Of a stretch of DNA of 64,000 bases, positions 13,338-13,571 are shown one piece after another. Source of the DNA: a virus; the IMG/VR virus record IMGVR_UViG_3300036398_001591, positions 1 to 64,000 of that record, one strand, 5' to 3'. The notes below the pieces were generated by a model that had not been told where the DNA came from, did no database searches, and was given only the letters and a program-made list of their open reading frames with translations. Within the stretch, counting starts at the first letter, position 1, and every line of letters starts with the position of its first letter. Position numbers and translations under genes: made by a program.

Positions 13338-13456
13338 CAACAGGTTAAACTTTTTGCGGACCATTGTGCTACCATTACACTAGACCCCTAAGGGAGCCGG
13401 AATCGAACCGGTCTTTCGGTTTTTCGTTGCATAAATTGTTTTGCGGAACTTAACCT
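13338..13456 (-). ncRNA. Y-RNA-like element 1, circularly permuted tRNA mimic
   Basis: Terminal stem AGGUUAA/UUAACCU, motif GUUCCGCA; T arm CCGG-UUCGAUU-CCGG, closed acceptor-like hairpin, then D arm GUGU-AAUGGUA-GCAC. Confidence 0.75.
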
Positions 13457-13461
13457 AAAAA

Positions 13462-13571
13462 CAACAGAGTAGTTTGATTGCCACCGTGGCACATCATCCG
13501 AGTCTCTTTCGAGTTTTGGTGGATAATGCTGGAATCGAACCAGCTAGTTTTTGTTTTGCTGAACCTACTCT
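13462..13571 (-). ncRNA. Y-RNA-like element 2, circularly permuted tRNA mimic
   Basis: Terminal stem AGAGUAG/CUACUCU, motif GUUCAGCA; T arm GCUGG-UUCGAUU-CCAGC, AUUAUCC-ACCA...GGAUGAU acceptor, D-like hairpin GCCA-CGG-UGGC. Confidence 0.75.

What the first reader, a model, noticed from the sequence alone, without database searches (positions are those of the whole stretch)
13338..13571. Two circularly permuted tRNA mimics
Seen: in elements 1 and 2 the order is T arm (GGUUCGAUUCC), then acceptor stem closed by a loop, then D arm, with the terminal stem taking the place of the anticodon arm. Element 2 has a 7-bp acceptor with an internal ACCA, so cleavage would give a two-piece tRNA-like RNA with a CCA end. 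Established: this is the topology of bacterial YrlA Y RNAs. Inference: elbow mimics acting as decoys or adaptors for tRNA-targeting nucleases or repair enzymes.
Basis: partly seen in the sequence, partly recalled or inferred. Interest (0 to 1): 0.85.

Follow-up and report, generated by a model that had tools for sequence, protein, structure and literature searches.

The report
Permuted tRNA mimics beside Ro-like gene
Two small RNA genes of a lake-water phage fold like tRNAs whose parts come in rotated order, sit on a conserved RNA "handle" directly upstream of a gene for a Ro60-shaped protein, and belong to a widespread phage relative of the known Ro60/Y-RNA particle that I found in no paper searched and that Rfam does not capture at its threshold.

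Summary
On the minus strand, 13466-13571 (A) and 13342-13456 (B) each run closing stem, T arm (GGUUCGAUUCC), acceptor-like hairpin, D arm, closing stem. Compensatory changes support the helices in 21 (B) and 12 (A) relatives. A has an invariant 7-bp acceptor-like stem followed by ACCA.

The gene 22 nt downstream (DUF2828 + vWA) is predicted with high confidence to fold like Ro60. The elements therefore look like YrlA-type Y RNAs of a divergent Ro-like protein.

Covariance models find the same RNA beside this gene family in Felixounavirus, mycobacteriophage, Enterococcus and Bacillus phages. Five tRNA-rich phages without the gene gave only background scores. Cronobacter phage S13 and a cyanophage carry unpermuted versions: a normal acceptor end with CCA, and the handle in place of the anticodon arm. 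This shows directly that the window's elements are circular permutations.

The elements do not reach Rfam YrlA's threshold (13 bits against 69), but orthologues give significant sub-threshold full-length matches.

Protein binding, processing and function are inferred, not shown.

This scan has noted the same pairing before on other DNA (174 notes, at least 149 genomes).

Verdict: a new variant of a known kind, of moderately high interest.

The parts
13466..13571 (-). Closing stem 13565-13571 / 13466-13472; handle motif GUUCAGCAA 13556-13564; T arm 13528-13544; acceptor-like 7-bp stem 13521-13527 / 13493-13499; ACCA 13517-13520; loop with a CUC-GAAA-GAG mini-hairpin 13500-13516; short D arm 13479-13491.
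   Evidence: Sequence. R1 31 bits and R2 33.5 bits. Alignment A3 with 98.6% pairing and covarying T and acceptor-like stems. MFE equals the proposed fold, z = -2.83.
13342..13456 (-). Closing stem 13447-13456 / 13342-13351; handle motif GUUCCGCAA 13441-13449; anticodon-stem-like helix 13417-13420 / 13360-13363; variable loop 13412-13416; T arm 13397-13411; acceptor-like hairpin 13383-13396; U8-A9 13381-13382; D arm 13366-13380; 3' motif CCGCAAAA 13352-13359.
   Evidence: Sequence. Alignment A2 of 21 homologues: 96.3% paired, 14 of 22 pairs with compensatory change. Broader alignment A5 including wV8, Gardann and BUCT-ZZ01: 96.2% paired, 15 of 19 pairs compensatory. R1 118.5 bits.
11880..13319 (-). 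Gene for a 479-aa Ro60-like protein (Pfam DUF2828 + DUF7788; helical ring plus a vWA domain with MIDAS residues D280, S282, S284, T355, D387). The ATG is at 13319 and the AGGAG ribosome-binding site lies 8 nt upstream. The gene starts 22 nt after element B.
   Evidence: Pfam and PHROG 850 'RNA-binding protein'. AlphaFold2 model with pLDDT 93.7. The Foldseek top 12 PDB hits are all Ro60/Rsr/phage Ro60: E 8e-9 to 2e-6, mostly TM-score 0.5-0.66 normalised by query length (0.38 for D. radiodurans Rsr, 0.46 for 9nen), full-length alignments. Profile search of PDB sequences: the top 4 are Ro60 proteins. Invariant columns.
13590..13752 (-). Element C: the third, promoter-proximal unit of the array. 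It has the same kind of closing stem (AGGAUAG/CUAUCCU) and a GUACAGCA motif. Its interior is not tRNA-like, apart from a hairpin with UUCGAUU in its loop.
   Evidence: Sequence. Its fold gives no energy support, z = +0.16. Not detected by R1 or R2. Included by analogy of its ends only.
13780..13808 (-). Sigma-70-type promoter (TTGCCA, 17 nt, TATAAT, with TG before the -10 hexamer) upstream of the C-A-B array and the Ro-like gene.
   Evidence: Consensus scan, 11 of 12 matches. No terminator-like site on the minus strand between it and the gene start. This is a consensus match only.
18659..18721 (-). Mini element with the same handle (AGGAUGA ... UCAUCCU, GUACAGCAA) and no tRNA-like core. It lies in the spacer between tRNA-Pro and tRNA-Asn.
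   Evidence: R1 29.5 bits and R2 30.5 bits. Sequence.
18507..18566 (-). Mini element with the same handle as element A (AGAGUAG ... CUACUCU, GUUCAGCAA). Its apical hairpin has a 7-nt loop. It lies in the spacer between tRNA-Asn and tRNA-Ala.
   Evidence: R1 29.5 bits and R2 30.1 bits. Sequence.

Best explanation
A and B are genes for Y-RNA-like non-coding RNAs of the YrlA architectural type. They partner the Ro60-like (DUF2828 + vWA) protein encoded directly downstream.

Each RNA has two modules.
1. A 'handle': a 7-10-bp closing stem whose sequence covaries, then GUUC(A/C)GCAA on the 5' side and an A-rich run ((C)GCAAAAA in B) on the 3' side. Inferred role: binding site of the Ro-like ring.
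2. A circularly permuted tRNA-like domain: T arm, acceptor-like hairpin, D arm. It keeps U8/A14, G18-G19, U54/A58 and G53-C61, so it can form the T/D elbow.

The array C-A-B is probably transcribed from the promoter at 13808-13780 together with the Ro-like mRNA, and then cut out of the precursor (inferred).

Element A has a 7-bp acceptor-like stem stacked on a 5-bp T stem, followed by ACCA. It is a plausible RNase P substrate. After 3' trimming it would become a two-piece RNA with a free CCA end, the same ends that unpermuted homologues have natively (inferred, with a precedent in M. smegmatis YrlA).

By analogy with Ro60/Y RNA particles, the RNA would tether or gate the ring protein and present a tRNA-shaped surface to tRNA-recognising enzymes or nucleases during infection (inferred).
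For: Shown here:
- The structure is conserved with compensatory changes in all helices.
- In 60 of 78 related loci that include the gene start, a full or mini element ends about 22-26 nt before the ATG of the Ro-like gene. 33 loci carry a tRNA-like version.
- The protein is predicted to fold like Ro60 over its full length, and its MIDAS motif is intact.
- Whole-record searches place the best RNA hits within 0.1-1.4 kb of the gene, on the same strand, in wV8, Gardann, BUCT-ZZ01, iF6, S13 and BcoS-136. Weak mini-element hits (23-28 bits, within the background range) lie next to the gene in CP8 and LAh_6.
- Five tRNA-rich phages without PF11443 score at most 31.5 bits. Five phages with it gave a positive control for the protein search.
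- Unpermuted homologues have CCA ends and carry the handle in place of the anticodon arm.
- Rfam YrlA gives significant sub-threshold, full-length hits on orthologues: 31-48 bits, E 1e-7 to 6e-3.
- Metatranscriptome contigs from four freshwater studies cover all of A and all of B. This is weak evidence.

From the literature:
- YrlA layout, genes next to Ro60 on the same strand, and RNase P cleavage with a CCA end on the 7-bp stem of M. smegmatis YrlA (PMC4201824).
- Two Y-like RNAs upstream of a phage Ro60 gene that bind the protein (PMC12135203).
Against: - There is no direct evidence of a stable RNA, of its ends, or of binding to the protein. RNA-library contigs cannot exclude DNA carry-over.
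- The window's own elements score only 13 bits against Rfam YrlA.
- They lack YrlA's GNCGAAN0-1G motif.
- Element A scores 31-33 bits with my models. That is the same range as false hits at junctions of tandem tRNA genes, so A's support rests on its own alignment and fold.
- B's single-sequence fold is no better than shuffles.
- The tRNA-like core is missing from the gene-proximal element in about half of the close relatives. The core is therefore an exchangeable cargo, not a requirement.
- In Vibrio phage nt-1 and Serratia phage BF the RNAs lie 8-200 kb from the gene. None was found in Listeria, Staphylococcus or Ochrobactrum phages.
- No RNA-repair genes were found in the partial record.
Confidence: 0.75

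Rival explanations
1. A purely cis-acting leader. The array is a structured 5' UTR through which the Ro-like protein, or another factor, controls translation or stability of its own mRNA. No stable trans-acting RNAs are made.
For: Element B ends 22 nt before the ATG, with no terminator in between. A full or mini element holds this position in 60 of 78 related loci.
Against: Copies with the same handle lie 5 kb away between tRNA genes in this phage. They lie downstream of the gene in wV8, Gardann and S13, and 8-200 kb away in nt-1 and BF. Unpermuted homologues look like ordinary tRNA transcription and processing units. M. smegmatis YrlA and YrlB are likewise cut from a precursor upstream of rsr. 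Autoregulation could still exist alongside a trans-acting role.
Confidence: 0.08
2. Protein-independent tRNA decoys. The RNAs act alone as sponges or substrates for host tRNA-directed defence enzymes (nucleases, or enzymes that modify the CCA end). Their position next to the Ro-like gene reflects only shared placement in the phage tRNA island.
For: The locus lies inside a 27-tRNA cluster. Element A and the unpermuted homologues carry acceptor stems with CCA. Some relatives keep an anticodon-like 7-nt loop.
Against: The conserved part across phyla is the handle, not the tRNA-like cargo. Hits above 40 bits were seen only in phages that encode the DUF2828 protein and in none of five tRNA-rich phages without it. 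A and B themselves have no anticodon loop.
Confidence: 0.1
3. Permuted genes for real decoding tRNAs, as in the red alga Cyanidioschyzon merolae (my own knowledge). On this reading they would mature through a circular intermediate.
For: The 3' half (T arm, acceptor 3' strand, ACCA) precedes the 5' half (acceptor 5' strand, D arm), as in permuted tRNA genes.
Against: Neither A nor B has an anticodon stem-loop. The ends are closed by a stem with a conserved, non-anticodon motif and long linkers. A's D arm is truncated. B's acceptor-like stem is 3-6 bp, and it is absent altogether in L017 and L070. The unpermuted homologues have the handle hairpin where the anticodon arm should be.
Confidence: 0.02
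4. Decaying tRNA debris. The elements would be remnants of tandem tRNA genes or recombination scars with no function of their own.
For: Tandem tRNA junctions give weak hits to both YrlA-type models: 18.9 bits with RF02553 and 32 bits with R2 at 11621-11741.
Against: The acceptor-like hairpins are perfectly paired and covary. All helices are maintained by compensatory changes across phages of Proteobacteria, Firmicutes, Actinobacteria and Cyanobacteria. The wV8-type element is conserved across 239 phage records: at least 95% identical in 207 of them and 80-90% in the other 32.
Confidence: 0.01

Closest known systems
YrlA Y RNAs bound by bacterial and mycobacteriophage Ro60/Rsr (Rfam RF02553; Chen et al. 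2014, PMC4201824)
   Same: The 5'/3' closing stem has a conserved single-stranded motif on its 5' side. The interior runs (V), T arm, acceptor-like stem-loop, D arm. The genes lie next to, and on the same strand as, the gene for a Ro60-fold ring + vWA protein, often two or more in tandem upstream of it. Orthologues of element B and the Enterococcus phage iF6 elements give significant full-length hits to RF02553 (31-48 bits).
   Different: The window's elements score 13 bits against the gathering score of 69. The motif is GUUC(A/C)GCAA (ACAGCAA in most relatives), not GNCGAAN0-1G. The partner protein belongs to Pfam DUF2828/DUF7788, not TROVE, and is 13-16% identical to solved Ro60 proteins. 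The tRNA-like core is an exchangeable cargo: many copies are 55-60-nt minis. Unpermuted forms exist in other phages.
M. smegmatis YrlA processing (Chen et al. 2014)
   Same: A 7-bp acceptor-like stem closed by a loop. There, RNase P cuts it and the 5' half ends in CCA, which gives a two-piece RNA held on Rsr. Element A has the same 7-bp stem stacked on a 5-bp T stem.
   Different: Here ACCA is already encoded (in 7 of 12 homologues) rather than completed after cleavage. Processing was not tested.
Thermus phage phiLo Ro60 with Yrl1/Yrl2 (PMC12135203; PDB 9KOP, 9L5Y)
   Same: It is a phage-encoded Ro60-fold protein with two Y-like RNA genes directly upstream. The phiLo protein is among the structural matches of the window's protein.
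   Different: The phiLo protein is a canonical TROVE protein. As described in that paper, its RNAs are stem-bulge-stem Y RNAs with a CGAA motif, not tRNA mimics.
Unpermuted tRNA-shaped RNAs of Cronobacter phage S13 and Synechococcus phage BUCT-ZZ01 (found here; unannotated in the stretch of BUCT-ZZ01 I read; the annotation of the S13 stretch was not read)
   Same: They have the same handle (a stem flanked by an A-rich run and UAUUCAGCA / AAUUCUGCAA), the same D and T arms, and the same neighbourhood of a DUF2828 gene.
   Different: The ends lie at a normal 7-bp acceptor stem with ACCA or CCA, and a tetraloop closes the handle where the anticodon arm would be. They are the circular permutation of the window's elements.
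Class I RNAs of dictyostelid amoebae (Kjellin et al. 2021, PMC7919456)
   Same: As that paper describes them, these are RNAs of about 60 nt with a short covarying stem joining the ends. An unpaired 11-nt motif follows the 5' stem strand, with C, C, A, A nearly invariant at positions 6, 9, 10, 11. A 3' CUGU has its C paired to a conserved 5' G. The window's handle has C..CAA at the same spacing after the stem, and ...CU-GUU after the 3' strand.
   Different: They are eukaryotic RNAs with an RRM protein partner reported and no tRNA-like cargo. The paper's position 3 (T) is G in the window's A and B. The resemblance was checked only against the paper's text, so it is a lead (first raised by earlier notes of this scan), not a tested relationship.
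Circularly permuted RNA genes: two-piece tmRNA of alpha-proteobacteria and permuted tRNA genes of Cyanidioschyzon merolae (my own knowledge, not checked here)
   Same: The gene order is rotated, so the tRNA-like acceptor/T part is encoded 5' of the acceptor 5' strand. Processing at the acceptor gives a two-piece or re-ligated RNA.
   Different: Those RNAs function in translation or ribosome rescue. These have no anticodon or tag-coding part and are linked to a Ro-like protein.

Membership tests
YrlA (Rfam RF02553) | Score at or above the family's gathering threshold (69 bits) with the Rfam covariance model | tested here: not met
   Element B scores 13.3 bits (E 0.38) over model positions 31-81 only, and A gives no hit. 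Nothing appeared in the permissive Rfam scan of 13200-13900. Orthologues at the same position in relatives (L071, L020, L061, L044) reach 31-36.5 bits over the full model length, and Enterococcus phage iF6 elements reach 47.8 and 34.4 bits. All are below threshold.
YrlA (Rfam RF02553) | T arm and D arm with tRNA-like conserved nucleotides, separated by an acceptor-like stem-loop, inside a 5'/3' stem | tested here: met
   Sequence and covariation. U8/A14, G18-G19, U54/A58 and G53-C61 equivalents are present. A Levitt-type 15:48 pair is not evident in B (A15 with A48).
YrlA (Rfam RF02553) | GNCGAAN0-1G motif near the 5' end (the proposed Rsr contact) | tested here: not met
   A has GUUCAGCAA and B has GUUCCGCAA at that place. 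The CGAA inside B's linker is not preceded by G-N.
YrlA (Rfam RF02553) | V stem-loop upstream of the T arm (present in many YrlA RNAs, not all) | tested here: inconclusive
   A has none. B has at most a 3-bp GCA/UGC hairpin. Relatives L020, L061, L071, L044, wV8, Gardann, iF6 and BUCT-ZZ01 have a clear 4-6-bp hairpin, mostly with a 7-nt loop.
YrlA (Rfam RF02553) | Encoded within about 4 kb of a Ro60 orthologue, on the same strand | tested here: met
   B ends 22 nt, and A 146 nt, upstream of the start of a Ro60-fold gene on the same strand. The partner is a DUF2828-type protein, not a TROVE-annotated one.
YrlA (Rfam RF02553) | Bound by the Ro60 protein; carries tRNA modifications (pseudouridine 55, dihydrouridine) | not testable with these tools
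   This needs immunoprecipitation and modification mapping.
Ro60 / TROVE protein family (the partner protein) | Match to Pfam TROVE (PF05731) | tested here: not met
   Only DUF7788 (1.3e-45) and DUF2828 (2.6e-19) are reported at E up to 0.01.
Ro60 / TROVE protein family (the partner protein) | Helical-repeat ring followed by a vWA domain with a MIDAS motif | tested here: met
   AlphaFold2 model with pLDDT 93.7 and pTM 0.92. The 12 best PDB matches are all Ro60/Rsr/phage Ro60, aligned over the full length, with probability 1.00. D280, S282, S284, T355 and D387 are invariant in 132 family members. Independent annotators call homologues 'Ro-like RNA binding protein' and 'Ro sixty-related protein'.
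Permuted tRNA genes (Cyanidioschyzon type) | An intact anticodon stem-loop, so that processing yields a decoding tRNA | tested here: not met
   No 7-nt anticodon loop is present in A or B. The handle occupies that position.

The most novel reading that the evidence does not exclude
The free acceptor/CCA end may be the working part. It would be made by RNase P cleavage of element A, and it is present natively in the unpermuted homologues. On this reading the Ro-like ring holds a tRNA-shaped bait whose CCA end is charged, modified or cut by host enzymes. The particle would then sense, soak up or repair attacks on tRNA acceptor ends, for example by host anti-phage toxins that target the CCA end. 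That would be a function not known for any Ro/Y-RNA particle.
Probability: 0.12. Interest if true: 0.85.

Novelty: new variant of a known kind. Interest (0 to 1): 0.6.

Why it matters
Ro60/Y-RNA particles are conserved from bacteria to humans, yet the role of the tRNA-like domain of bacterial Y RNAs is still open.

The DUF2828 branch is very common in phages:
- 696 phage records hold the protein gene.
- The family has 5953 clusters at 50% identity.
- The wV8-type RNA alone is present in 239 records, most of them unannotated there, and the Gardann-type in 39.

It occurs in phages that are easy to work with: Felix O1 relatives, cluster-L-type mycobacteriophages, and Enterococcus and Bacillus phages. 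The partnership, the RNase P step and the role in infection could therefore be tested directly.

Permuted and unpermuted versions of one RNA exist side by side in nature. That offers a natural experiment on which end of the tRNA shape matters.

There are also practical gains. These RNAs are mis-annotated as a tRNA (Gardann 'tRNA-Asn') or overlapped by doubtful ORFs (wV8 gene 48).

Tried and rejected
- Rfam at gathering threshold over the window, and permissively over 13200-13900: only tRNAs and noise in the region.
- blastn of 13300-13920 against 50,697 phage records: only the neighbouring tRNA-Leu matched, so this phage lineage is not among the deposited phages.
- phmmer of the protein against PDB sequences: nothing. 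A profile reached Ro60 only weakly. The fold comparison settled it.
- Folding the whole 251-nt stretch: not better than shuffles, z = -0.60.
- Element C: no energy support and no model hit. It is included only because of its ends.
- A crude regular-expression scan for handles gave 238 hits against 35-44 in reversed or opposite-strand controls. That is too unspecific for counting.
- R1 and R2 found no convincing element in Listeria phage LP-064, Staphylococcus phage S-CoN_Ph1 or Ochrobactrum phage OC. This does not show absence.
- The R2 hit in Cronobacter S13, and the R1 hit next to the BUCT-ZZ01 gene, proved to span two tandem unpermuted RNAs rather than one permuted RNA.
- The hits at 11621-11741 and 20153-20215 are tandem-tRNA junction artefacts.
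- Searches for RtcB, Rnl2-type ligase and CCA-adding enzyme in the record were negative, but the record is about half complete.
- Literature searches for DUF2828, Ro-like + phage + Y RNA, and related terms found no description of this pairing. The supplements of Chen et al. 2014 and two reviews were not held, so prior mention cannot be excluded.
- Metatranscriptome contigs cover the elements, but they cannot show transcription, RNA ends or strand.
- Parts of the region without RNA-library cover (13706-13850) mean nothing.
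Full report
WHAT IS THERE

The window is part of an 82.5-kb IMG/VR virus record, about 49% complete. It carries 27 tRNA genes, all on the minus strand. The finding lies in the 520-nt gap between tRNA-Leu(caa) (13841-13917) and a 479-codon gene. That gene runs 11880-13319, with its ATG at 13319 and AGGAG 8 nt upstream.

Read on the minus strand, the gap holds these features in order:
- a near-consensus sigma-70 promoter, TTGCCA-17-TATAAT, at 13808-13780, matching 11 of 12 positions;
- three units, each closed by its own 7-10-bp terminal stem, each carrying GU(U/A)C(A/C)GCA just after the 5' strand of that stem, and each followed by GUU plus a U-rich spacer. 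These are C (13752-13590), A (13571-13466) and B (13456-13342).

The finding concerns A and B.

CHECK OF THE OBSERVATION

Element A reads: AGAGUAG, GUUCAGCAA, an 11-nt linker, T arm GCUGG-UUCGAUU-CCAGC, strand AUUAUCC, ACCA, 17 further loop bases, strand GGAUGAU, G, a short D arm UGCC-ACGGU-GGCA, AUCAAA, CUACUCU.

Element B reads: AGGUUAAGUU, CCGCAAAAC and a linker, ACCG, AAAGA, T arm CCGG-UUCGAUU-CCGG, a short hairpin (CUCCCUUAGGGGUC), UA, D arm GUGU-AAUGGUA-GCAC, AA, UGGU, CCGCAAAA, AGUUUAACCU.

ARAGORN and Rfam's tRNA model call neither element a tRNA.

The nucleotides that build the tRNA elbow are in place: U8/A14, G18-G19, U54/A58 and G53-C61.

The evidence that this is more than chance is comparative. 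I fetched 80 related viral loci through the protein, at 68-96% identity.
- For B, an alignment of 21 distinct homologues gives 96.3% standard pairs over five helices, and 14 of 22 pairs show compensatory change. No shuffle out of 500 reaches this, and slid controls give 22-47%.
It is a 4-bp helix between the segment just before the T arm and the segment just after the D arm. It appears as ACCG/UGGU, ACUG/CAGU, CCUC/GAGG and CCCC/GGGG, and it sits exactly where a tRNA has its anticodon stem.
- For A, 12 homologues give 98.6% pairing. The T stem covaries. The acceptor-like stem is always 7 bp and takes three forms: UCC/GGA, CCA/UGG and CGC/GCG.
- A's minimum-energy fold on its own is the proposed structure, z = -2.83.
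- B's single-sequence fold is not better than shuffles (z = +0.21), so B rests on covariation alone.
- ACC follows A's acceptor-like stem in 10 of 12 homologues, and ACCA in 7 of 12.

THE NEIGHBOURING PROTEIN

The gene 22 nt downstream of B matches Pfam DUF2828 and DUF7788, and PHROG 850 'RNA-binding protein'. It does not match Pfam TROVE.
- With an alignment of 132 diverse family members, AlphaFold2 gives a confident model: pLDDT 93.7 and pTM 0.92.
- The 12 best matches in the PDB are all Ro60 proteins: Xenopus and human Ro60, Deinococcus Rsr and Thermus phage phiLo Ro60. E-values run from 8e-9 to 2e-6. TM-scores normalised by query length are mostly 0.5-0.66 (0.38 for D. radiodurans Rsr, 0.46 for 9nen). 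The alignments are full-length at 13-16% identity.
- The next matches are isolated vWA domains.
- A sequence profile also ranks Ro60 proteins first, though weakly.
- The MIDAS residues are invariant.
- Some depositors already label homologues 'Ro-like RNA binding protein' or 'Ro sixty-related protein'.

The locus is therefore a Ro60-fold protein gene preceded by tRNA-like RNAs on the same strand. That is the arrangement published for YrlA/Rsr and for phage phiLo.

THE RNA FAMILY BEYOND THIS PHAGE

A covariance model built from B's homologues (R1) finds the following:
- In the window it finds B, A and two copies of about 60 nt that have the same handle but no tRNA-like core. These lie in spacers between tRNA genes 5 kb away, at 18659-18721 and 18507-18566.
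- In the 78 related loci that include the gene start, 60 have a full or mini element ending about 22-26 nt before the ATG. 33 loci have a tRNA-like version.
- The handle is therefore the constant part, and the tRNA-like domain is one of several cargoes.

R1, and a broader model R2 (96.2% pairing, 15 of 19 pairs compensatory), then find the family in distant phages that encode the protein:

| Phage | Score | Position relative to the gene |
|---|---|---|
| Escherichia phage wV8 (Felixounavirus) | 47 bits | 1 kb downstream |
| Mycobacterium phage Gardann | 45 bits | 0.1 kb downstream |
| Enterococcus phage iF6 | 68.6 and 55.2 bits | 0.25 and 0.6 kb upstream |
| Bacillus phage vB_BcoS-136 | 49.9 bits (best) | 1.4 kb upstream |
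| Serratia phage BF | 50.5 bits (best) | about 200 kb away |
| Vibrio phage nt-1 | 44 bits (best) | 8-15 kb away |

- Weak mini-element hits (23-28 bits) lie directly upstream of the gene in Campylobacter phage CP8 and Aeromonas phage LAh_6.
- Single-sequence minimum-energy folds of several of these reproduce the architecture without any constraint.
- The wV8-type element is conserved in 239 phage records and the Gardann-type in 39.
- In Gardann's record the element is annotated as 'tRNA-Asn'. In wV8 it lies under a hypothetical ORF on the other strand.
- As controls, five tRNA-rich phages without a PF11443 match (T4, T5, Akh-2, JSF10, SpoonbillGilly) give at most 31.5 bits with R2. The protein search rang in 5 of 5 positive controls.
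- The sample is small, and scores near 30 bits also arise at junctions of tandem tRNA genes. Only hits above about 40 bits are informative.

DIRECT EVIDENCE FOR CIRCULAR PERMUTATION

Cronobacter phage S13 and Synechococcus phage BUCT-ZZ01 carry, next to their DUF2828 genes, pairs of tRNA-shaped RNAs in normal order.
- Each has a 7-bp acceptor stem made by the two ends and followed by ACCA or CCA, plus a D arm and a T arm.
- In place of the anticodon arm sits the handle, closed by a tetraloop. Examples are ...AAAAACG-CAAACU-GACA-AGUUUG-UAUUCAGCA... in S13 and ...AAAACG-CAUUCU-GUAA-AGAAUG-AAUUCUGCAA... in BUCT-ZZ01.
- Opening that loop and closing the acceptor end gives the window's topology.
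- BUCT-ZZ01 also has a permuted copy elsewhere in its tRNA cluster.
- No alternative unpermuted reading exists in the window, because the 3' closing strand of A and the 5' closing strand of B are not complementary.

A tandem pair of unpermuted genes is the obvious evolutionary intermediate. This is an inference.

RELATION TO YrlA

Architecturally the elements are YrlA-like. By membership they are not.
- Rfam's YrlA model (RF02553, gathering score 69) gives 13.3 bits for B and nothing for A.
- The GNCGAAN0-1G motif is absent.
- However, orthologues of B in close relatives (L071, L020, L061, L044) give full-length hits of 31-36.5 bits (E 2e-4 to 6e-3). The iF6 elements give 47.8 and 34.4 bits.
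- The family is therefore either a divergent relative of YrlA or a convergent solution. The scores may largely reflect tRNA-like arms in permuted order. I cannot tell which.

HOW IT MOST LIKELY WORKS

What is shown:
- conserved structure;
- linkage to a Ro60-fold gene across very different phages;
- exchangeable cargo on a constant handle;
- the existence of unpermuted forms with CCA ends.

What is inferred:
- The handle is the binding site of the ring protein.
- The array is co-transcribed with the gene and processed. This is compatible with the promoter, with the lack of a terminator, and with the M. smegmatis precedent.
- Element A is cut by RNase P and trimmed to a CCA end.
- The particle presents a tRNA shape to tRNA-recognising enzymes or nucleases.

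Contigs from four freshwater metatranscriptome studies cover all of A and all of B. One contig spans 13444-13584 with 2 differences and another spans 13328-13492. Contigs cannot show RNA ends or exclude DNA carry-over.

No RtcB, Rnl2-type ligase or CCA-adding enzyme is present in the half-complete record. In Listeria phage LP-064 an RtcB-like gene lies 1.3 kb from the DUF2828 gene.

NOVELTY AND STANDING

I found no paper that describes RNA partners of DUF2828 proteins, and Rfam has no family that captures them at threshold. The library searched is incomplete, and key supplements and reviews were not available.

The kind of system, a Ro60-fold protein with a tRNA-mimicking Y RNA, is known. I therefore class this as a new variant of a known kind.

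This scan has noted the same pairing many times on other DNA: 174 notes in at least 149 genomes. I treated those notes as leads only. The results above are from my own calls.

One lead from those notes is a likeness of the handle to dictyostelid Class I RNAs. I checked it only against the text of Kjellin et al. 2021. The stem, the unpaired motif with C..CAA at the same spacing, and the 3' CUGU agree. One of the five near-invariant positions does not. No homology test was made.

Noticed in passing
window 19151-19238 (-): A tRNA-Tyr(GUA)-like gene missed by ARAGORN and by Rfam's tRNA model. It has an acceptor stem GGAGCCU/AGGCUCC with ACCA, an anticodon arm with loop CUGUAAA, a T arm with GGUUCGAUUCC and a long variable region, but no normal D arm.
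   Followed up: partly
window 18805-18872 (-): Another odd tRNA-sized RNA lies between tRNA-Gly and tRNA-Pro. It has an acceptor-like pairing GCAGUC/GACUGC followed by UCCA, and a T-arm-like hairpin CUACG-UGGGAAU-CGUAG without the usual T-loop sequence. No tool called it.
   Followed up: no
window 18507-18566 and 18659-18721 (-): Two copies of about 60 nt carry the same handle without a tRNA-like core and sit in spacers between tRNA genes. The first carries a 5-bp hairpin with the 7-nt loop CUUGUAA. They argue against a purely cis-acting role of the handle.
   Followed up: partly
window 13500-13516 (-), and A3 homologues: Inside the acceptor-like loop of element A, a 3-bp hairpin with a GAAA tetraloop covaries as CUC/GAG, GUC/GAC and GCC/GGC in 6 of 12 homologues. 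It is missing where the loop is short. Its role is unknown.
   Followed up: partly
L112 1449-1572 and 1579-1694 (Cronobacter phage S13); L088 3081-3197 and 3209-3330 (Synechococcus phage BUCT-ZZ01): Tandem pairs of unpermuted tRNA-shaped RNAs with CCA ends, whose anticodon arm is replaced by the handle closed by a tetraloop. Rfam's tRNA model spans the two S13 RNAs (121 and 113 nt) as tRNAs with a long insert; the BUCT-ZZ01 pair was read by folding only.
   Followed up: yes
L091 3034-3153 (Mycobacterium phage Gardann); L090 3904-4029 (Escherichia phage wV8): Public annotation problems. Part of the Gardann element is deposited as 'tRNA-Asn', although ARAGORN calls no tRNA there. The wV8 element lies under hypothetical gene 48 on the opposite strand. 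In most of the 239 and 39 related records nothing is annotated at the site.
   Followed up: partly
window 13809-13843 (-): Directly after tRNA-Leu and before the -35 box lies UGUUG-UUUUUAGG-CAACA, an inverted repeat. It overlaps a small AGGC...GCCU hairpin that encloses UGCAAAAAAA, which resembles the 3' flank of the handle. It could be an operator or a degenerate handle.
   Followed up: no
window 8508-11593 (+): A FecR-domain protein and a CHASE2 + class III nucleotidyl cyclase protein (686 aa) are encoded on the opposite strand, next to the tRNA/Ro-like region. These are unusual genes for a phage.
   Followed up: no
L092 (Listeria phage LP-064): Here the DUF2828 gene lies 1.3 kb from an RtcB-like RNA ligase gene and near a tRNA-Met. 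However, my models found no handle-bearing RNA in the whole record. A more divergent RNA partner may exist there.
   Followed up: no
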